From positions 4,521 to 68,520 of the forward strand of contig JAJXZR010000015.1 in the NCBI GenBank assembly GCA_021779915.1: DNA of 64,000 nt. Reading direction: 5' to 3'. This DNA comes from a bacterium. GTDB lineage: Bacteria; Patescibacteriota; Minisyncoccia; CAIUEV01. Both the position numbers and the translations under genes were made by a program. Of this stretch, positions 5,667 through 57,158 are shown one piece after another (the stretch's first letter is position 1; each line of letters opens with the position of its first letter). The notes beneath the pieces are model-generated. The model saw only the letters and a program-made list of their open reading frames with translations, had not been told where the DNA came from and did not search any database.

Positions 5667-6839
5667 ATGAATAAGAGGAAAAAAAGAAAATGGCACAAAA
5701 ATTTTTTGAAATATATGCACCTTATAATCGAACACCCCAATTATTCCAATATGCCTGAAATTTATAAAAAAAACGGGGATATAAGATGGATTACTCCTGG
5801 GAAAAGTGCAATCGGTCAAAAAAGACTTTCTTGGTGGGATGAAAAACGCAAAGAATTAAAAATAAAAAAAGAGGAGGCTTGGATATCAAAAGTTGCCAGA
5901 GCTATTCACCCAACGGGTAAAAAACCTTGTCAGATTTGCGGTAAAGAAATGAGTTTGGATTATATTTACCCAAATAAAAGGAACGGGTTCAGCCCAGGAG
6001 CGATGAGTAATGCACCGGATCGGTTTGACGGTTACCACAGTTACAATTTATGTTGCAGAAGTGCTCATGATACTGGAAGACACAAAGCTAACCTAAACCG
6101 CTATGGAGAAGACAGGCGCGCATATGAAAATTGGTCAGACGGAGATTGGAAAGCTGCAAGTTGGCTTATGAAGGTCTTTAACAAACATGGCTTAAGTCCT
6201 GATCATATTGGGCCCATATCTTTGGGTTTTTCTCATAATCCAAACTTTAATCCACTAACTCCAGCAAAAAATTCTGCAAAAAACAATAGAATGACACTTT
6301 CTGACGTGAAAATGCTTATTTCTTTAGAAAAGGAGGGGAAAAGTGTAGTTTCCTGGCATTCAAAGTATATTTGGGACATCTTAAAAAATAAAATTAAAAC
6401 CAATGCTGACGCACTAAAGCTCAGTAAAATAATGCGTAAAAATATGCATCAAGTTTTACTGGTCTTATCCGAAATTTCAAGGCAAAGGTATAATAAATTT
6501 TTAGTAAATAATTTTTTACATCCTGAATATGCTTTTTATTCTATAGAATTTAAAAAATTTAATCCCAAAACCGGTTCTTATGGGGAAATGATAAAAACAC
6601 CTGGAAAAAAGAAACAGTACGAAAATAATGCAAAGAGGTATATCAAAATTTCCCTTGAATCATTGAAGGCATACAGAAAAGTGAAAAATCGCAACACGCA
6701 AATTATTAAATCAAAAAAAATTCAAGATATGTTAGATAAAACGATATTGTTGTTGAAAGACAAAAAAACCGATAAAGCCAAATCAAGCCTTAATAAAATT
6801 TGTTCGGAGCTAGCTAATTCATTAGCTAGGGATTTTTAA
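5667..6839 (+). CDS. Putative restriction endonuclease, HNH/beta-beta-alpha-Me type with Zn ribbon
   Basis: 390 aa. Cys pairs CQICG and CCRSAH are followed by SPDHIGPISLGFSHNPN (DH..P...G/N, HNH-like). Its 3' end is convergent with, and overlaps by 14 nt, the adjacent m5C methyltransferase gene. Confidence 0.5.
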   Translation: MNKRKKRKWHKNFLKYMHLIIEHPNYSNMPEIYKKNGDIRWITPGKSAIGQKRLSWWDEKRKELKIKKEEAWISKVARAIHPTGKKPCQICGKEMSLDYIYPNKRNGFSPGAMSNAPDRFDGYHSYNLCCRSAHDTGRHKANLNRYGEDRRAYENWSDGDWKAASWLMKVFNKHGLSPDHIGPISLGFSHNPNFNPLTPAKNSAKNNRMTLSDVKMLISLEKEGKSVVSWHSKYIWDILKNKIKTNADALKLSKIMRKNMHQVLLVLSEISRQRYNKFLVNNFLHPEYAFYSIEFKKFNPKTGSYGEMIKTPGKKKQYENNAKRYIKISLESLKAYRKVKNRNTQIIKSKKIQDMLDKTILLLKDKKTDKAKSSLNKICSELANSLARDF

Positions 6840-7956
6840 ATAAAATTGTTTCATATTTTTTTGGTGAAATTTTTCCAGCAATAAATTCTTGGTATAGGCT
6901 TTTTGATTTTATCTCTTTTTTTAGTGTGTTTTCACCCCCATTGACTTTTATGGATGGGAGATTTTCTATTGCATCTTTAACTGAAATATATTTATTTTCG
7001 TTGATAATTACTTCCTGCGGATAGCATGCTCTGGGATCTCCTCTTAAGACTCCTATTATAACAACTCTCTTCCTTTTTTGAGGAACCCCAAACTTGACTG
7101 CAAACATTTTTTTTCCCTCTATTTTATATCCGAGGTTTGAAAAACTTTCTTTTACACTATTAAAAGTTTTTCCATTATTACTTGTTAAAATACCTTCGAC
7201 ATTTTCAACTAAAATTACCTTCGGCTTTATTTTCCTTACTATTTCAACAAATTCTTTAAACAAAAAATTCCTAGGATCATCCACCAACCGCTTTCCAGCA
7301 TAGGAAAATCCCTGGCAGGGAGGACCTCCAACTATAATATCTATTTTTTTGTTTTTTATACTTTCATAAAGCTTTTCTTTGATGTCTTTTTTTGTAATAT
7401 CTCCTTCGATAAGCACTGTATTTTTGTGGTTGTTTTTATACGTTTCACATGCTGATTTAAAATTATCATTAGCAACAATAATTTTGTAACCAGCCCACTC
7501 AAAGCCCTTGCTTAAACCACCTGAACCACAAAAAAGATCGAGAACATTTTTCGTGTTAGTATATTTCTTAATTTGTTTCGCAATAAAATAAGCAAGCAAG
7601 GGTGGAACGGCGTTTCCAATTTGTTTACAAAGTGAGGTTTTTGAGCCATAGAAAATATAATCATCTGGGAATGACTGTAATCTGGCCGCCTCTCGAGCAC
7701 TTATAACCCTGTCGTCTTTTGGATGAATATACGCCCCATTTCCAGGTCTATTAAAATAGGTTGTTATTGTATAACTTGGTTTATTCCAACTTAATCGTCC
7801 ATACAGAGTTGTTCTTCCACCAGTTCTTCTTATTTGTTCAAGTCTTTTTGATGGAACATTTAAGGGAATGTTTTTCCAGTTTCCACCTTCTGGAATTGCT
7901 ACAACCATCTTTAAGTCATTTTCACTGAGTGGATAAGTTACATGATTATAAAGCAT
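6826..7956 (-). CDS. DNA (cytosine-5)-methyltransferase, circularly permuted motif order
   Basis: Motif IX (RLQSFPDDY) and X (QIGNAVPP) come near the N-terminus. They are followed by motif I (LDLFCGSGG), IV (GGPPCQGFS) and VI (LVENVEG). Confidence 0.85.
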   Translation of the reverse strand: MLYNHVTYPLSENDLKMVVAIPEGGNWKNIPLNVPSKRLEQIRRTGGRTTLYGRLSWNKPSYTITTYFNRPGNGAYIHPKDDRVISAREAARLQSFPDDYIFYGSKTSLCKQIGNAVPPLLAYFIAKQIKKYTNTKNVLDLFCGSGGLSKGFEWAGYKIIVANDNFKSACETYKNNHKNTVLIEGDITKKDIKEKLYESIKNKKIDIIVGGPPCQGFSYAGKRLVDDPRNFLFKEFVEIVRKIKPKVILVENVEGILTSNNGKTFNSVKESFSNLGYKIEGKKMFAVKFGVPQKRKRVVIIGVLRGDPRACYPQEVIINENKYISVKDAIENLPSIKVNGGENTLKKEIKSKSLYQEFIAGKISPKKYETILFKNP

Positions 7957-9811
7957 AATTCAAACTTTTATTTATAGTGCTTATCAAATTTTCCTCCTTA
8001 TATCTGCTTAGAATAAACCTTATTTCGTCTTTCTTTAAGCGATATAATTTAAAAATTTCAAGATTTAGTCTGGCGACATCATTATCGTTTTTACTTTTTC
8101 TGATTTTATCAACCAGATTTTCAATTTTAATTTTTTGATTTTCATTTGGAATAGCAATTGGTAACTCAGCGATTTCGTAATTGCTTATGTGATTGTTTGA
8201 GTTAGTTATTTTGAATCTCCAATCTAAAAGCAACGAGTTTAAAACTCCCAACATATAATCAAGGGAAATATTTTTGTTCTTAAAAAGGCTTTCTCTTTTG
8301 CAAATATAATTACAAGAATTTCCAAGTATTACATTTGCAGGAATTATCGCAAATTTTAGCCTTTTATTCCCATGAATGTTTGAAACTTGTTGACATACCA
8401 ACCGATCTTTAAACAAATGTTCTTTTTTGCCATTTAGCTTAAAAAGAAAATTTTCATCTACATACAGCCTTCCAAATTCAAAATTAAATTCAGCTATATT
8501 GATTCCTCTTAGTAAAGGATAATTAGTTTTTTGTTCAGTGATGAATGACTTGTCTAAAGTTAAGTCTAATTCCCCACGAAGATTATGAATATCTGTAAAA
8601 GATTTTACTTTTGGACAGCTATTTATCTTTTCAAGCACACTCACTCCTTTTTCATTTTCAATAATTATGGGTACTGACTCAGAAATTGCTTTTATTGTCT
8701 TTATTTTTATTTTTACACTTGTTTTCTCAAAATCCATAGCATTTATAACCTCCGGATTTATTTCTAAAATCGTACCTTTATGATTTTTATTTAAAGAGAA
8801 AAAACAAAAGGCTTGGGAAATATCTGGAAAAAATTCATTTTTTTCCGGAATTATATAAATTTTTGAAAAAGAATAATTTTCTATTATTCTTTTTCTTAAT
8901 TTTTCACCTTGACGATCGTTTAATAGCGTTATTGGTATAATTAGACCTATTTTACTATTTTTGTTTGTATAGTTTTCAATTATTTCTTCTACAAATATTT
9001 TATAGTAATTTAAAGTTCCTTCGTTATACTTATAAATATTATTTCGTTTAATAAAATCTATGAGATCTTTAATATTAATTAAACTATTTTCTTTGTTTTT
9101 TAGATATTTATTTGAATTTTCCTTTAACAATTTATAAGGTGGATTTGTTAAAACCATATCAAATCCATCTTCTACATTGAATATTTTTTTTGGATCATTT
9201 TTGTTTATTTTACCATTACTAAAACCAAAAAGAATATCGCCTGAATAAAAATTTTTTTCACTGTTCGTTACTTTAATTCTATATTTGGAGCTTACATATA
9301 GCGGAATAATTTTTTTTAACAAGATTATGGCATCATGGTCTATATCGGCACAAAAAATATTATTGACAACTTTTTGTGCTTTATCTCTATTCAAATCAGA
9401 TAAATTGTTGAAAATATAATCAATAAAAGATAGAACAAATATCCCTATTCCAACGCAAGGTTCTAAAAATTTTATATCTAAAAGATTTTTTTCTTTAATA
9501 AATTTAAAAGCTTCTTTTGTGATCTGTTTAGCGATTTCATAATCAGTGTAGTATATGCCAAAATGCTTTCTTTCGTCTGTTTTAAACATTTTTTTATTTT
9601 CTTTTTCTTTTTGATGAATCAACCCGATAAGCTGAACAACAGAAATTAAATCAATTTCATTTTTATTTATCAAATTTTTATACAAAAAGTCATCAATAAC
9701 ACTTTTGATTTGGGGCTCATCGCTCATAAAACTCAAAAGTTTGTAGGTAAGATCCTCTTTGTTTCTATATTTAACACATATAGTATTGTATATTTGAAAA
9801 ATTTTTTTCAT
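7946..9811 (-). CDS. N6-adenine DNA methyltransferase, gamma class, with C-terminal target-recognition region
   Basis: Motif X (HFGIYYTDYEIAKQI), motif I (LEPCVGIGIF) and motif IV (TNPPY). 621 aa. It overlaps the m5C methyltransferase gene by 11 nt, consistent with an operon. Confidence 0.8.
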   Translation of the reverse strand: MKKIFQIYNTICVKYRNKEDLTYKLLSFMSDEPQIKSVIDDFLYKNLINKNEIDLISVVQLIGLIHQKEKENKKMFKTDERKHFGIYYTDYEIAKQITKEAFKFIKEKNLLDIKFLEPCVGIGIFVLSFIDYIFNNLSDLNRDKAQKVVNNIFCADIDHDAIILLKKIIPLYVSSKYRIKVTNSEKNFYSGDILFGFSNGKINKNDPKKIFNVEDGFDMVLTNPPYKLLKENSNKYLKNKENSLINIKDLIDFIKRNNIYKYNEGTLNYYKIFVEEIIENYTNKNSKIGLIIPITLLNDRQGEKLRKRIIENYSFSKIYIIPEKNEFFPDISQAFCFFSLNKNHKGTILEINPEVINAMDFEKTSVKIKIKTIKAISESVPIIIENEKGVSVLEKINSCPKVKSFTDIHNLRGELDLTLDKSFITEQKTNYPLLRGINIAEFNFEFGRLYVDENFLFKLNGKKEHLFKDRLVCQQVSNIHGNKRLKFAIIPANVILGNSCNYICKRESLFKNKNISLDYMLGVLNSLLLDWRFKITNSNNHISNYEIAELPIAIPNENQKIKIENLVDKIRKSKNDNDVARLNLEIFKLYRLKKDEIRFILSRYKEENLISTINKSLNYAL

Positions 9812-10576: not shown

Positions 10577-10631
10577 TTTGGTATTTTATTGATTAAAATT
10601 CATATTTTTCCTCATTAATATTGTTTCCCTC

Positions 10632-10844
10632 TGTCATCCCGGGCTTGACCCGGGATCCAGTTAGTCTTATTAATTATTCTAATTGTTCTAATTAACCTAA
10701 TTGTTCTAAACAAAATCACAAGAACCAATTTTTTAAAAAATTTATTTATTGATACTTGGTGCTTTTTTAGAATAATTAGTATAATTAGGTCAATTAGAGT
10801 AATTTTACGTTCTCCTGGATCCCGGGTCAAGCCCGGGATGACAC
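10632..10844. mobile_element. MITE-like nested palindromic element, subtype A (copy 2)
   Basis: tgtcatcccgggcttgacccgggatccag ... cctggatcccgggtcaagcccgggatgacac. About 85% identical to copy 1, including the internal inverted repeat. Confidence 0.65.
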
Positions 10845-11038
10845 GTAATTGTTAATTTTCTCTGTTTAAAACATTATAAAATTTGTGAATTGAAAATTGT
10901 TTGTCGCCTAGTCGACCCGCCTCTGGAGGGAAAATTGGAAATTAGAAATTGAAAATTTTGTCCTGTTCAGTTGTTCAATAATTCTTACACTTTCATTAAA
11001 ATATGATAAATAAAACTCGTCAAATTTTTAAATTCCAT

Positions 11039-11156
11039 CCAAAAATTACTTTTAGAATTCCGTTTTTTATTAGTTTTCCTGTGAGGACTTGTCTGAGCGA
11101 AGCGAGTTCCGGAACAGGAAAATAATAAAAAACGGAATTCTAAAAGTAATTTTTGG
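11039..11156. repeat. Perfect 42-bp-arm palindrome enclosing the conserved core GTGAGGACTTGTCTGAGCGAAGCGAGTT
   Basis: Arms ccaaaaattacttttagaattccgttttttat..gttttcctg and its reverse complement. The same core recurs at 55656-55780 inside different arms. Confidence 0.6.
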
Positions 11157-11229
11157 AGGAACAATTAATCAATTGTTTTTCAAAAATAAAAGTCCATTTT
11201 AATTTTAAAATGGACTTTTTGAATTGAAT

Positions 11230-12873: not shown

Positions 12874-12987
12874 TTTCTTCTCCTTTTCTTTTTCTTGATA
12901 TTTTATTGAGGTTTAAAAACAAATTTTTAAAGAGCTTTCAAGCTGGCTTTCATTGTGATATAGAAATAATATAAAAGCTAACTTTTA

Positions 12988-13103
12988 ATCTAAAAATAGA
13001 ATAAAAAACCGAAGGCATTGCTTTTTAAAACTGTTGTTTTCTGATAGAAAATACCTCAGTTTTAAAAAGCAATGCCTTCGGTTTTTTATTCTATTTTTAG
13101 ATT
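12988..13103. terminator. Long perfect inverted repeat (~47-bp arms); probable bidirectional rho-independent terminator
   Basis: aatctaaaaatagaataaaaaaccgaaggcattgctttttaaaactg and its reverse complement, separated by about 24 nt. A-rich upstream and T-run downstream. Sits at the 3' end of the 13120..13878 gene. Confidence 0.5.
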
Positions 13104-13119
13104 ATTTATCAATTCAATT

Positions 13120-26926: not shown

Positions 26927-27007
26927 GGGGGGGAGTTACAAGTTGTAAGTAAAAAGTGGCAAGATTTTTTTCTTGCAACTTACTACTTGTAACTTGTAAC
27001 TCCCCCC
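26927..27007. repeat. GC-clamped hairpin (ggggggagttacaagttgtaag...cttgtaacttgtaactcccccc) immediately 3' of the VR
   Basis: Arms of about 35 nt built from GYWRCAAG octamers and closed by a G7/C7 clamp. Lies between the target stop (27046) and the avd start. Confidence 0.55.
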
Positions 27008-30313: not shown

Positions 30314-30585
30314 TTACAAGTTACAAGCTACAAGCCACAAGCTACAAGCTACAAGCTACAAGCTACAAGCTGCAAGAAGACCCTTGCTACTTGCTACTTG
30401 CTACTTGCTACTTGCTACTTGCTACTTGCTACTTGCTACTATTTTAAATTAAAAATTGGGGTTGTCAAAAAAACGATAAGTTTAGTATCAAGTAAAAAGT
30501 TACAAGAAGAAAGTAGCAAGTTACAGGTAACAAGTTACAAGAAAATTCTTACCACTTGCAACTTGCCACTTTTTACTTGCTACTT
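30314..30585. repeat. Large octamer tandem-repeat arrays (GCTACAAG x ~8; CTTGCTAC x ~9; then mixed GTWRCAAG units)
   Basis: ttacaagttacaagctacaag...ctacaagctgcaag / cttgctacttgctac... Same family as 25933-26105 and 26927-27007. Confidence 0.6.
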
Positions 30586-31845: not shown

Positions 31846-32000
31846 TTAAGTTTAATTTGAAATTCTGATTACGTAGAATTAGATTACCTTTTTTTGGTTT
31901 TGACTAGGAAAATTAAGAAAATTTTCAATTTCTAATTTTCAATTTTCAAACAATTTTCAATTTATTAATTTCCTAATTTTATAAACAATACTATTCCAGT

Positions 32001-32152
32001 GTGTCATCCCGGGCTTGACCCGGGATCCAGGAGGATAATCTTAGCTTAATAAAATCTTAATTTGTCTAGTTTTTTAGCAATACGCATTAAAATAACATTC
32101 TGTTAGTCTAATTTTGTTTCCTGGATCCCGGCTCGGGGGCCGGGATGACACA
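32001..32152. mobile_element. MITE-like element, subtype B
   Basis: gtgtcatcccgggcttgacccgggatccaggaggataatcttagc ... cctggatcccggctcgggggccgggatgacac. Flanked on both sides by CAATTTTC/GAAAATTG blocks. Confidence 0.65.
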
Positions 32153-32233
32153 CAAGACGGATATTGTTTGAAACATTGAATCATTCCATCATTGAAAATT
32201 GTTTGAAAATTGTGAATTGAAAATTGAAAATTT

Positions 32234-42326: not shown

Positions 42327-42395
42327 AAATTAATTTAATTTTCAAACAATTTTTAATTGATTAATTTTACAATTAGATAAACAATATCTTCTAGT

Positions 42396-42491
42396 GTGTC
42401 ATCCTTGCGAAAGCGAGGATCCAGGAGAATTATATTAGACTAATAAAATATTACTTTCCTGGATCCCCGGTCGACACGCCGAGGATGACAC
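42396..42491. mobile_element. MITE-like element, subtype C, inverted copy
   Basis: Exact reverse complement (few mismatches) of 40941-41038. The adjacent about 80 bp (aattagataaacaatatcttctag / ctagaagatattgtttatctaatt) is also mirrored. Confidence 0.65.
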
Positions 42492-42558
42492 ATATTTTTT
42501 GTTTAAAACATTTGAAAATTAATCAATTAAAAATTGTTTGAAAATTGGAAATTGGAAA

Positions 42559-45939: not shown

Positions 45940-45985
45940 GCTTTGTAGTACGAAAGGGCTTAGAAATAAGGTGCAAGGTTATTCT

Positions 45986-46118
45986 AAATGACGAATTACT
46001 AATGACGAATGTCGAATCAATGACGAAATTCAAAAATCAAAATATTTTAATCTTCGGATCCTAGATTTGATTCGACATTCGTCATTAGTAATTCGTCATT
46101 TATTCGTCATTCATCATT
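45986..46118. repeat. AATGACGAA-unit inverted repeat between the sigma and anti-sigma genes
   Basis: aatgacgaattactaatgacgaatgtcgaatcaatgacgaa ... ttgattcgacattcgtcattagtaattcgtcatttattcgtcatt. Same family as 51979-52124. Confidence 0.55.
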
Positions 46119-46692: not shown

Positions 46693-46710
46693 GAAAAGTT
46701 TTATTAATAT

Positions 46711-46929
46711 GTGTCATCCCCGGCGTGTCGACCGGGGATCCAGGAGAGTGGAAAATTACTCTAATTAACCTAATTATACTAATTGACCTAAAAAAGCACC
46801 AAATACCAATAAATAAATTTTTTTAAATTGGTTCTTGGGATTTTGTTTAGAATAATTAGGTTAATTAGAGTAATTAGAATAATTGGTGAGACTAACCTGG
46901 ATCCCCTGTCGACACGCCGGGGATGACAC
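46711..46929. mobile_element. MITE-like element, subtype A (copy 4)
   Basis: gtgtcatccccggcgtgtcgaccggggatccaggagagtg ... cctggatcccctgtcgacacgccggggatgacac. Confidence 0.65.
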
Positions 46930-46946
46930 AAAGAAAACCCATCAAT

Positions 46947-55655: not shown

Positions 55656-55780
55656 ATCTATTTTAACAAGTTTGAAGATTTTTTGTTAATTTATTGTGAG
55701 GACCTGTCTGAGCGAAGCGAGTTGGGCAACAAGAAATTAACAAAAAATCTTCAAACTTGTTAAAATAGATTCTTAATGAA
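55656..55780. repeat. Perfect 37-bp-arm palindrome enclosing the conserved core GTGAGGACCTGTCTGAGCGAAGCGAGTT
   Basis: Arms atctattttaacaagtttgaagattttttgttaattt and its reverse complement. The same core occurs at 11039-11156 with different arms. Confidence 0.6.
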
Positions 55781-55811
55781 ACTGATGTATTTTAATCAAA
55801 GACACAAAATT

Positions 55812-55845
55812 AAAAACGCCCGCCTGAGGCGGACGTTTTTAATTT
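55812..55845. terminator. Rho-independent terminator downstream of cspA
   Basis: acgcccgcctgaggcggacg hairpin followed by tttttaatttttt. Confidence 0.55.
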
Positions 55846-55864
55846 TTTGCAATAGGTAATTCGC

Positions 55865-56967: not shown

Positions 56968-57158
56968 AAGGTCTTTTTAATTCTCCTCTTACTAATACCA
57001 ACTAGCTTGTGTACCAATAAACAAGAGATGGTTTTGGTAATTAAAAATTATAAGTTATAAATTCAAAAGAACAGTTCAAAATTCAAAGTTATTAAATTTT
57101 GAACTTATAATTTTTCTTTTGAATTTATAACTTATAATTTTTAATTACCCCTTTCTTC

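What the first reader, a model, noticed from the sequence alone, without database searches (positions are those of the whole stretch)
11039..11156. Conserved 30-nt core GTGAGGACYTGTCTGAGCGAAGCGAGTT embedded in two unrelated perfect palindromes
At 11039-11156 the core sits in the loop of a 42-bp-arm perfect palindrome. At 55656-55780 the same core, with 1-2 nt differences, sits between completely different 37-bp perfect arms.

The conserved element is the loop and the stems are locus-specific. This is the reverse of ordinary MITE families. Two readings are possible. The core may be a small structured RNA or protein-binding module that inserts into palindromic targets, or generates them. Alternatively it may be a recombination site that duplicates flanking DNA in inverted orientation, as in foldback elements.
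Basis: seen in the sequence. Interest (0 to 1): 0.55.

Follow-up and report, generated by a model that had tools for sequence, protein, structure and literature searches.

The report
Invariant hairpin cap on locus-specific palindromes
Two intergenic palindromes in this candidate-phyla-radiation bacterium carry at their tip a 17-base sequence that recurs unchanged on hairpin tips in at least six bacterial phyla, in phages and in small single-stranded DNA viruses; this looks like an undescribed family of hairpin-tip repeat elements.

Summary
The core GTGAGGACYTGTCTGAGCGAAGCGAGTT occurs only at 11081-11108 and 55696-55723. Each copy sits in the 31-nt loop of a near-perfect palindrome. E1 has 45/44-nt arms with one bulged G. 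E2 has 42-nt arms with one A·G mismatch. The outer arms are unique in the window and no more alike than chance.

The core is not local. TGTCTGAGCGAAGCGAG caps hairpins in Lachnospiraceae, Prevotella, Desulfobacterales, Ralstonia megaplasmids, Halomonas, Thiotrichaceae, gut phages and ~2.3-kb genomovirus-like circles. No Rfam family or paper matched.

In those genomes the stems are shared, covarying repeat families. Only the middle base of GCGNAGC varies, as in a G-N-A mini-hairpin. The core strand folds better and holds more G·U pairs.

Whole elements are present or absent between relatives. In Ralstonia the empty site is itself a hairpin, and the insert lies at its tip.

Best reading (about 0.4): a non-autonomous hairpin-tip element that acts as a folded single strand and lands at palindrome centres. 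The partner enzyme is unknown. Rivals are a structured RNA, snap-back generation of the arms, and a priming signal.

The parts
11038..11082 (+). E1 left arm (45 nt; G11073 is bulged)
   Evidence: Matches only its own partner arm in the window.
11083..11113 (+). E1 loop, GAGGACTTGTCTGAGCGAAGCGAGTTCCGGA (31 nt). GGA at 11085-11087 can pair with TCC at 11108-11110.
11090..11106 (+). E1 invariant 17-mer TGTCTGAGCGAAGCGAG. The mini-hairpin GCGAAGC lies at 11098-11104.
   Evidence: Cross-taxon recurrence. Only the middle base of the GNA loop is free to vary.
11114..11157 (+). E1 right arm (44 nt)
55656..55697 (+). E2 left arm (42 nt; A55693 mismatched with G55733)
55698..55728 (+). E2 loop, GAGGACCTGTCTGAGCGAAGCGAGTTGGGCA (31 nt). 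Its 3' end differs from E1, so the small GGA/TCC closing helix is lost.
55705..55721 (+). E2 invariant 17-mer TGTCTGAGCGAAGCGAG
55729..55770 (+). E2 right arm (42 nt). Both arms carry an outward-facing promoter-like TTAACA-18-TAAAAT with an upstream TG.

Best explanation
E1 and E2 are two copies of a small, non-coding, non-autonomous hairpin-tip element. It belongs to a widespread and apparently undescribed family.

The functional part is the cap: about 20 unpaired bases, N-TGTCTGAGC-GNA-GCGAG-TT. Within it GC-GNA-GC forms a three-base mini-hairpin closed by a sheared G·A pair, flanked by possible tandem G·A pairs. The cap is read on the strand that carries TGTCTGAGCGAAGCGAG, when that strand is folded as single-stranded DNA or as RNA.

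The stems only need to pair, so they drift. Within a genome they form repeat families. In this AT-rich CPR genome, only the cap plus about 12-16 nt on each side is shared. The outer arms are those of the local palindrome.

I infer that the element is gained and lost as a unit and lands at the centre or tip of palindromes, moved in trans by an enzyme that recognises the cap.

Shown: the anatomy, the recurrence across phyla, the free middle base, the stem covariation, the strand asymmetry, presence/absence between relatives, and one hairpin-tip insertion site in Ralstonia.

Inferred: mobility in the CPR genome, the nature of the partner enzyme, and DNA versus RNA as the active form.
For: 1. Recurrence. 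The 22-mer GGACNTGTCTGAGCGAAGCGAG is in 57 loci from MAGs of Lachnospiraceae, Prevotella, Desulfobacterales, Mediterraneibacter, Halomonas, Thiotrichaceae and Acidimicrobiales, often many copies per genome. The 17-mer is in 31 viral loci. A one-mismatch version occurs at 2-7 places in each of 130 Ralstonia megaplasmids from cultured strains.

2. Position. In 71 of 87 distinct contexts the minimum-energy fold encloses the core with at least 20 pairs. Contexts show 43 different closing-stem sequences.

3. Cap structure. In the fetched loci, the commonest variant is GAA to GCA, in five separate families. In viral contigs, C/G/T at that position gives 22 matches, 14 of them in hairpins, including close relatives of the N=A genomovirus-like circles. 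Changing the neighbouring G or A gives only 9 and 5 background-like matches. This is the GCGNAGC rule for the very stable mini-hairpin (PMC13037366).

4. Stems are under pairing constraint. In 10 Desulfobacterales copies, 9 of 40 predicted pairs show changes on both sides that keep the pair. Ralstonia arm types change on both arms together.

5. Strand. The core strand folds better than its complement in 73 of 87 contexts and has 230 versus 125 G·U pairs in the enclosing helix.

6. Gain and loss. A locus whose radical SAM protein is 78% identical lacks the whole of E1, while the flanking terminator and promoter-like blocks align. Ralstonia Po82 and PSI07 lack the elements that other strains have between the same genes. 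The PSI07 empty site is a hairpin, and the insert lies at its tip.

7. Targets exist. The window has other long palindromes without the core. Removing the shared module plus one flanking TA from E1, E2 and L098 leaves palindromes centred on TA (read).
Against: - No partner protein was found. One phage group has a tyrosine recombinase gene next to the core, but other contexts do not.
- No target-site duplication could be proved. The TA flanks are self-complementary, so they are expected fairly often inside any AT-rich palindrome.
- There are only three CPR-type copies (E1, E2, L098), and the extra 8.5 kb of the contig holds none.
- The locus lacking E1 is diverged, so the exact insertion boundary in the CPR genome is not defined.
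- Exact 17-nt identity across phyla, and in a virus with fungal-type introns, is hard to explain by one bacterial enzyme.
- In Ralstonia the unit that comes and goes is a ~470-bp composite of two capped hairpins, not a single hairpin.
- The core strand is more often antisense to flanking ORFs (22 versus 9 contexts, with crude ORF calls). In the window it lies on the C-rich strand, not on the lagging-strand template that the known single-strand transposases use.
Confidence: 0.4

Rival explanations
1. The element is a structured RNA transcribed from the core strand. It would be a long hairpin whose invariant apical loop binds a conserved factor or gives exceptional stability. It could act as a stable small RNA, an RNA-stability element or a terminator-like element.
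For: - The core strand has more G·U pairs and folds better.
- Stems covary as in RNA families.
- In Ralstonia, Desulfobacterales, Prevotella and two phage lineages, the hairpin is followed on the same strand by a U-rich tail and a pyrimidine/purine hairpin. The tail mirrors the pyrimidine arm, as expected for a U·A-U / C·G-C triple helix clamping a purine 3' strand.
- In the window, both copies are followed on the + strand by terminator-like hairpins.
Against: - No Rfam family matched at gathering or relaxed thresholds.
- No promoter-like site lies upstream of E1 or E2 on the + strand.
- The CPR copies lack the 3' module.
- Near-perfect 42-45-bp AT arms with unique sequence are unusual for a selected RNA.
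- The distribution is patchy and multi-copy, with presence/absence between strains, which fits a selfish repeat better.
- GCGNAGC is the textbook DNA mini-hairpin.
Confidence: 0.25
2. The cap generates the arms. A nascent DNA strand ending in the very stable mini-hairpin plus its short closing helix snaps back and copies its own upstream sequence. This creates a perfect inverted copy of the local flank. Later template switching keeps the arms identical.
For: - The outer arms are unique, near-perfect and unrelated between copies, while only the apex region is shared.
- The core strand in the window has the sequence of the nascent lagging strand.
- The Ralstonia clusters show flank units repeated in inverted orientation on either side of the insert.
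Against: - The Ralstonia empty site already has both arms.
- The window has long palindromes with no cap.
- The locus lacking E1 shows neither arm.
- No allele with one arm only was seen.
Confidence: 0.12
3. The element is a single-strand DNA initiation signal: a hairpin that resists SSB and marks a priming or entry site for a primase or polymerase. This would resemble the G4-type complementary-strand origins, RSF1010 ssiA or the N4 hairpin promoters.
For: - Mini-hairpins of this type sit at those sites (PMC13037366).
- In the genomovirus-like circles the cap is on the strand that codes for the capsid protein, which is the packaged single strand in that virus family (established knowledge), and it is separate from the canonical TAATGTTAT origin.
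- Ralstonia and L069 have divergent pairs on opposite strands.
Against: - There are many copies per chromosome, between housekeeping genes.
- Bacterial and eukaryotic primases are unrelated, so one invariant 17-mer is unexpected.
- In the window the cap lies on the leading-strand template.
Confidence: 0.08
4. The core is a recombination or attachment site used by phage or element integrases. Its presence in host hairpins would reflect attB sites.
For: In three related viral contigs the core lies within about 30 nt of the end of a gene, and it lies within 1.2 kb of the contig end in all three. In L074 that gene is a tyrosine recombinase.
Against: - The core lies on the inner side of the integrase gene in L074.
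- No integrase was found near the core in the other loci examined.
- A 20-nt unpaired loop is not the anatomy of a core-type site.
Confidence: 0.04
5. The pattern is a sequencing or assembly artefact, such as a hairpin adapter read-through.
For: A constant loop between locus-specific inverted copies is what a hairpin adapter would produce. Most first hits were MAGs.
Against: - The sequence on the two sides of each element differs.
- The elements are identical in three assemblies made with different tools.
- The core is present in 130 finished Ralstonia megaplasmids.
- Stems are imperfect and covary.
Confidence: 0.01

Closest known systems
REP / REPIN elements mobilised by RAYT tyrosine (HUH) transposases
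   Same: Short, intergenic, multi-copy, non-coding palindromic repeats. They fold as hairpins in single-stranded DNA and are thought to be moved in trans by a single-copy enzyme (PMC3116915 and PMC3337134, listed).
   Different: In a REPIN the conserved 25-mers form the stem and the spacer or loop is the variable part. Here it is the reverse. No GTAG or CGTC tag at the hairpin foot was seen in the sequences read. REP families are lineage-specific, whereas this cap is identical across phyla. No RAYT gene was looked for or found.
BIMEs (bacterial interspersed mosaic elements) and insertion sequences that target REP loops, such as IS1397 and ISKpn1 (from memory)
   Same: In Ralstonia the capped hairpins sit in mosaic clusters of several hairpin types in alternating orientation. 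The cluster is inserted at the tip of another hairpin.
   Different: The insert carries no transposase. The mosaic pieces are different sequences. The CPR copies are single.
MITEs (miniature inverted-repeat transposable elements)
   Same: Size, inverted-repeat anatomy, intergenic position, and presence/absence between relatives.
   Different: MITE termini are conserved within a family and flanked by direct target duplications. Here the termini are unique, the centre is conserved, and no direct duplication could be shown.
GCGNAGC 'extraordinarily stable' DNA mini-hairpins at single-strand origins (G4, St-1, alpha3, RSF1010 ssiA, N4 promoters)
   Same: The cap contains GCGAAGC. It obeys the N-is-free rule (PMC13037366).
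   Different: Those are single sites in phage or plasmid origins. Ten further invariant bases flank the mini-hairpin here, and the element is dispersed in chromosomes.
s2m, a conserved stem-loop shared by unrelated RNA virus families (from memory)
   Same: A short structured module with near-identical sequence in distantly related genomes, implying horizontal spread.
   Different: s2m is an RNA virus element, is in Rfam, and has a different sequence and fold. No match was found here.

Membership tests
REP/REPIN | The conserved sequence forms the stem and the loop or spacer is variable | tested here: not met
   The loop is invariant and the stems vary between taxa. In the window they also vary between copies.
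REP/REPIN | A cognate RAYT (Y1 HUH transposase) gene in the genome, usually flanked by the repeats | not tested
   Whole genomes could not be searched. Pfam matches for ten ORFs flanking the two elements included no transposase family.
REP/REPIN | Multi-copy, extragenic, hairpin-forming | tested here: met
MITE | Terminal inverted repeats conserved among family members | tested here: not met
   The outer arms of E1, E2 and L098 are no more alike than shuffled sequence and are unique in the window.
MITE | Direct target-site duplication flanking the element | tested here: inconclusive
   TA lies on both sides of the shared module in all three CPR copies. TA is self-complementary inside a palindrome, so this is weak. 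The Ralstonia junctions show an inverted duplication, not a direct one.
Integron attC site | Conserved R''/R' boxes (GTTRRRY) at the base, a variable centre, and a position between cassettes next to intI | tested here: not met
   Conservation is at the tip, not the base. The neighbours are housekeeping genes and no integron integrase is nearby.
Any Rfam RNA family | Covariance-model score above the family's gathering threshold | tested here: not met
   Only a tRNA scored in the window. Over the elements there were only generic microRNA-like hairpin hits below threshold.
Intrinsic terminator | Short G+C-rich stem followed directly by a T run | tested here: not met
   The scan calls the neighbouring hairpins (within 11188-11219 and 55806-55846) terminator-like, but not E1 or E2. 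Relatives in other phyla do have a T-rich tail.
GCGNAGC mini-hairpin | GC-GNA-GC with a free middle base and constrained G and A | tested here: met
   Viral-contig scans: N=A 34 matches, N=C/G/T 22 (14 in hairpins). Controls: G changed, 9 matches; A changed, 5 matches.
Rolling-circle origin or HUH nick site in a hairpin loop | An invariant loop sequence cut by a cognate Rep/HUH protein encoded nearby | not testable with these tools
   The anatomy fits (invariant loop, variable stem). No Rep gene lies beside the elements. The genomovirus-like circles have their own canonical origin elsewhere.

The most novel reading that the evidence does not exclude
The 17-nt cap is the signature of a new kind of horizontally spreading genetic module. 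It would be a hairpin-tip element recognised as folded single-stranded nucleic acid by an unknown enzyme, or by a universal host process. It would insert at, or seed, palindrome centres in bacteria from CPR to Proteobacteria, in phages and in eukaryotic single-stranded DNA viruses. In some lineages it is coupled to a triple-helix-forming 3' module.
Probability: 0.25. Interest if true: 0.85.

Novelty: new variant of a known kind. Interest (0 to 1): 0.62.

Why it matters
Interspersed palindromic repeats are usually lineage-specific, and their conserved part is the stem. Here the tip is invariant and the stem is free, and the same cap occurs across at least six bacterial phyla, in phages and in small single-stranded DNA viruses.

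If the cap is a recognition site, an unknown structure-specific enzyme or process with a very wide host range awaits discovery. If it is an RNA, it is a widespread motif missing from Rfam.

Either way it gives a simple 17-mer marker for finding such elements. Ralstonia solanacearum carries it in complete genomes with filled and empty alleles, and it is a culturable organism in which the question can be tested. The mirror-repeat 3' module seen in relatives could be a bacterial triple-helix element.

Tried and rejected
- Rfam at gathering and relaxed thresholds on the window, 40 loci and three element types gave nothing relevant.
- Full-text searches for the core string and for descriptive terms found no description of the motif. 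The only notable string hits were an archaeal virus terminal repeat and a Mycobacterium repeat primer.
- My metagenome scan used the full 28-mer.
- I suspected the arms of E1, E2 and L098 were diverged homologues with mirrored indels. A shuffle test did not support this, so I dropped it.
- I suspected a shared inner-stem motif, TAGTTTTCYTG, in other window palindromes. It is not enriched.
- An empty site for E2 could not be found, because synteny is not conserved in relatives.
- Extending the contig by 8.5 kb gave no further copy.
- E. coli genomes hold only chance matches inside a coding gene.
- The RB43-type phage match is a partial GAGCGAAGCGAG motif without TGTCT and was not pursued.
- Proteins next to the core in viral loci: one tyrosine recombinase, otherwise no Pfam match.
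- The hairpin-adapter artefact idea was rejected on complete genomes and imperfect, covarying stems.
- An AAV Rep-binding-element resemblance (GAGC repeats) and a boxA-like tail were considered from memory only and not used.

Full report
**What is in the window.**
The 28-nt core GTGAGGACYTGTCTGAGCGAAGCGAGTT occurs exactly twice, at 11081-11108 and 55696-55723, both on the + strand, with none expected by chance. Nothing more appears at up to 3-4 mismatches.

Each copy lies in the 31-nt loop of a long inverted repeat.
- E1: arms 11038-11082 and 11114-11157, perfect except for a bulged G at 11073.
- E2: arms 55656-55697 and 55729-55770, with 41 of 42 paired.

Each arm matches only its own partner in the 64 kb. 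Palindromes of this size are absent from shuffled copies of the window: 5 observed against 0 in each of 20 shuffles. The same elements, base for base, are present in three independent assemblies.

**Context.**
The best named relatives of the neighbouring radical SAM protein are from Moranbacteria and other Patescibacteria. The contig is JAKBET010000001.1 of GCA_021833695.1.

Both elements are intergenic and lie between minus-strand genes. E1 sits between a B12-binding radical SAM gene and lexA. E2 sits between a cold-shock gene and a small ORF upstream of a XylR_N/V4R gene. Each lies 20-35 nt from a terminator-like hairpin.

The + strand, which carries both cores, is the C-rich strand, and 41 of 56 long ORFs are on the other strand. 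The window also holds other long AT-rich palindromes with unrelated centres.

**The core is not a local curiosity.**
An exact scan of one genome per species found GGACNTGTCTGAGCGAAGCGAG in 57 loci. These are from MAGs of Lachnospiraceae, Prevotella, Desulfobacterales, Mediterraneibacter, Halomonas, Thiotrichaceae and Acidimicrobiales, often with many copies per genome.

The 17-mer TGTCTGAGCGAAGCGAG is in 31 viral loci. These include two notable groups.
- About 2.3-kb circles with a geminivirus-type Rep, a canonical TAATGTTAT origin elsewhere, and the capped hairpin inside the apparent intron of the Rep gene, inferred from the split Rep ORFs and GT start, on the capsid-coding strand.
- Gut phage contigs where the core lies 250-600 nt from a RAGATH-1 hammerhead on the opposite strand.

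BLAST against finished plasmids found a one-mismatch version at 2-7 places in each of 130 Ralstonia megaplasmids. E. coli lacks it.

No Rfam family covers any of these. Full-text searches found no description.

**Anatomy across taxa.**
In 71 of 87 distinct contexts the minimum-energy fold encloses the core with at least 20 base pairs. The stems differ completely between taxa, with 43 different closing-stem sequences.

Within a genome the stems are shared. Lachnospiraceae, Prevotella, Desulfobacterales and Ralstonia each have an ordinary repeat family of about 130-160 nt. Each family has an imperfect hairpin made of a conserved outer stem, a variable inner stem and the universal cap.

In ten Desulfobacterales copies, 9 of 40 predicted pairs show changes on both sides that keep the pair.

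The CPR copies are different. A third CPR-type copy from a metagenome (L098) shares with E1 only the cap plus about 12-16 nt on each side. The outer arms of E1, E2 and L098 are no more alike than shuffled sequence.

**Structure of the cap.**
All 17 positions are fixed except one.
- Among near-matches in the fetched loci, the commonest variant is GAA to GCA, seen in five separate families.
- In viral contigs, C, G or T at that position gives 22 matches, 14 of them in clear hairpins. Some are close relatives of the N=A circles.
- Changing the neighbouring G or the neighbouring A gives 9 and 5 matches that look like background.

This is the rule of the GCGNAGC mini-hairpin: two G-C pairs, a sheared G·A pair and a free middle base. 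That motif is known as an exceptionally stable, nuclease- and SSB-resistant DNA structure found at single-strand replication and transcription start sites (PMC13037366).

The flanking GA...GA could add tandem sheared pairs. This is inference, because the positions do not vary.

The strand carrying TGTCTGAGCGAAGCGAG folds better than its complement in 73 of 87 contexts. It has 230 versus 125 G·U pairs in the enclosing helix. So this is the strand that folds, as RNA or as single-stranded DNA.

**Gain and loss.**
A locus whose radical SAM protein is 78% identical keeps the upstream terminator and the downstream promoter-like and conserved blocks, but lacks the whole of E1, arms included.

In Ralstonia, two gene pairs show the same pattern: cobaltochelatase/cbiE and glgX/glgB. 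Each carries a ~470-bp palindromic composite with two divergent capped hairpins in some strains and nothing in others.

At the glg locus, the empty allele (PSI07; the aligned flanks are 98% identical) is itself a hairpin. The insert sits at its tip. The tip mini-hairpin is present on both sides in inverted orientation.

The composite occurs in either orientation at the two loci, as read. Between strains, the arm types of orthologous copies change on both arms together.

**Reading of the CPR copies.**
From the sequences, the shared module in E1, E2 and L098 is flanked by TA on both sides. Removing the module and one TA leaves TTTTTTAT-TA-ATAAAAAA, TTTTTTGT-TA-ACAAAAAA and CTTTTCTGA-TA-GCAGAAAAG. 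These are palindromes centred on TA.

This fits insertion at the centre of a palindrome that already existed. The evidence is weak, because TA is self-complementary and common in AT-rich arms.

The alternative is that the stable cap makes a nascent strand snap back and copy its own flank. That would also give unique, perfect arms. It is favoured by nothing more than the uniqueness of the arms and the inverted flank units in Ralstonia. It is disfavoured by the two-armed empty site in Ralstonia and by uncapped palindromes in the window.

**Best explanation and its limits.**
I take E1 and E2 to be copies of a non-autonomous hairpin-tip element whose cap is the recognised part and whose stems need only pair. 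I take it to be gained as a unit at palindrome centres (confidence about 0.4).

The following are shown:
- the anatomy;
- the cross-phylum recurrence;
- the free middle base;
- the stem covariation;
- the strand asymmetry;
- the presence/absence between relatives;
- one hairpin-tip insertion site.

Not shown are mobility in the CPR genome, the enzyme, and whether DNA or RNA is the active form.

Several facts count against the explanation.
- No partner protein was found. One phage group has a tyrosine recombinase beside the core, and others do not.
- No provable target duplication exists.
- The core strand is more often antisense to neighbouring ORFs (22 versus 9, with crude ORF calls).
- In the window the core strand is on the leading-strand template, unlike the known single-strand transposons.
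- It is difficult for one enzyme to explain identity from CPR bacteria to a virus with fungal-type introns.

**Rivals.**
A structured RNA is the main rival (0.25). It is supported by the strand asymmetry and covariation. It is also supported by a striking 3' module in Ralstonia, Desulfobacterales, Prevotella and two phage lineages.

In that module, a pyrimidine tail mirrors the pyrimidine arm of the next hairpin and so matches its purine arm in parallel. Examples are CTCTCTTTTT / TTTTTCTCTCT / AGAGAGAAAAA and TCTTTCTTTT / TTTTCTTTCT / AGAAAGAAAA. The relation covaries in six lineages. This is what a pyrimidine-motif triple helix on one strand would require. The CPR copies lack this module and have no upstream promoter-like site.

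The other rivals are snap-back generation of the arms (0.12), a single-strand priming signal (0.08), an integrase site (0.04) and an artefact (0.01, refuted by finished genomes). They are set out in the rival list.

**Comparison with known families.**
The nearest kinds are REP/REPIN elements, BIME-like mosaics and MITEs.
- The element fails the defining REPIN feature, because the conserved part is the loop and not the stem.
- It fails the MITE feature of conserved termini.
- It is not an attC site, an intrinsic terminator or any Rfam family.
- It meets the definition of a GCGNAGC mini-hairpin.

I therefore file it as a new variant of the interspersed palindromic repeat kind. There is a 0.25 chance that it marks something categorically new.

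**Verdict.**
Interest is 0.62.

Noticed in passing
window 10632-10843; also 46710-46930, 42393-42490, about 1954-2072 and 31975-32177: A second repeat family with terminal inverted repeats of the form GTGTCAT-(mini-hairpin)-ATCCAGG, about 100-220 bp long. The internal mini-hairpin differs between copies (CCCGGGCTTGACCCGGG, CCTTGCGAAAGCGAGG, CCCCGGCGTGTCGACCGGGG). One copy (42393-42490) sits at the centre of a 48-nt-arm AT-rich palindrome (42337-42546). The locus from the relative with the 78%-identical radical SAM protein, L063, has a copy at the same place with a different mini-hairpin. It resembles Neisseria dRS3 from memory. The 71-aa 'ORF' at 10615-10830 lies inside one copy and is probably not a gene.
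   Followed up: partly
loci L004, L022, L024, L066, L069, L099, L100, L104 (not in the window): In relatives from five lineages, the capped hairpin is followed by a pyrimidine tail that is the mirror image of the pyrimidine arm of the next hairpin. The tail is therefore parallel-matched to that hairpin's purine arm. The three segments covary between lineages, which is the signature of a pyrimidine·purine-pyrimidine triple helix on one strand.
   Followed up: partly
window 12986-13104, 45985-46102, 57036-57149, 26928-27007: Other long AT-rich intergenic palindromes (arms 36-55 nt, 86-100% complementary) with unrelated short centres. Such palindromes are a general feature of this genome.
   Followed up: partly
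window 55660-55689 (- strand) and 55737-55766 (+ strand): Each arm of E2 carries an outward-facing promoter-like site, TTAACA-18-TAAAAT with an upstream TG. The minus-strand one points at the downstream 71-aa ORF. E1 has no equivalent.
   Followed up: no
window 30383-30441 and 30484-30584: A tandem heptamer array (CTTGCTA)n faces a degenerate inverted copy, forming a roughly 200-bp imperfect palindrome.
   Followed up: no
loci L075, L084, L092 (gut phage contigs): RAGATH-1 hammerhead ribozymes lie 250-600 nt from the core, on the opposite strand, inside a roughly 950-nt non-coding stretch downstream of a gene with a proline/glutamine-rich tail.
   Followed up: partly
loci L064 and L083 (about 2.2-2.4-kb genomovirus-like circles): Telomere-like (TTAGGG)n repeats lie next to the capped hairpin inside the apparent Rep intron. 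In L064 the repeats abut the core directly.
   Followed up: no
loci L006 and L041 (Desulfobacterales): Two copies carry the same roughly 190-nt insertion inside the right arm of the capped hairpin, so another element is nested within it.
   Followed up: no
loci L099, L102, L103 (Ralstonia cobaltochelatase/cbiE spacer): Variable-length tandem repeats (GGTTGGTRTTGG)n and 35-nt REP-like units (GCCCCGGCAGGGGAYGAAAC..GGATGCACCAC) flank the capped pair in inverted orientation. Strain Po82 has only 57 nt between the same genes.
   Followed up: partly
papers PMC10342651 and PMC10117815: The terminal inverted repeat printed for Methanosarcina spherical virus contains GGGGTGAGCGAAGCGAATCCCC, the same GAGCGAAGCGA cap on a GGGG/CCCC stem. 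A Mycobacterium intracellulare repeat primer reads CGACGATGCAGAGCGAAGCGATG. These may be relatives or chance matches.
   Followed up: no
window 5667-9811 and locus L107: A cluster of restriction-modification genes (Eco57I-type methylase, DNA methylase, Alw26I-type endonuclease) lies next to lexA. An AbiEii gene and NiFe hydrogenase subunits lie just left of the window. The hydrogenase is notable for a CPR genome.
   Followed up: no
locus L145 (phage RB43, between ORF200w and gene 3): An intergenic stretch in RB43-type phages holds GAGCGAAGCGAGTTCCGTCAAGCGAAGCGAAGACGGA, with the reverse complement of GAGCGAAGCGA nearby. The GCGAAGCGA motif is repeated there but without the TGTCT part of the core.
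   Followed up: no
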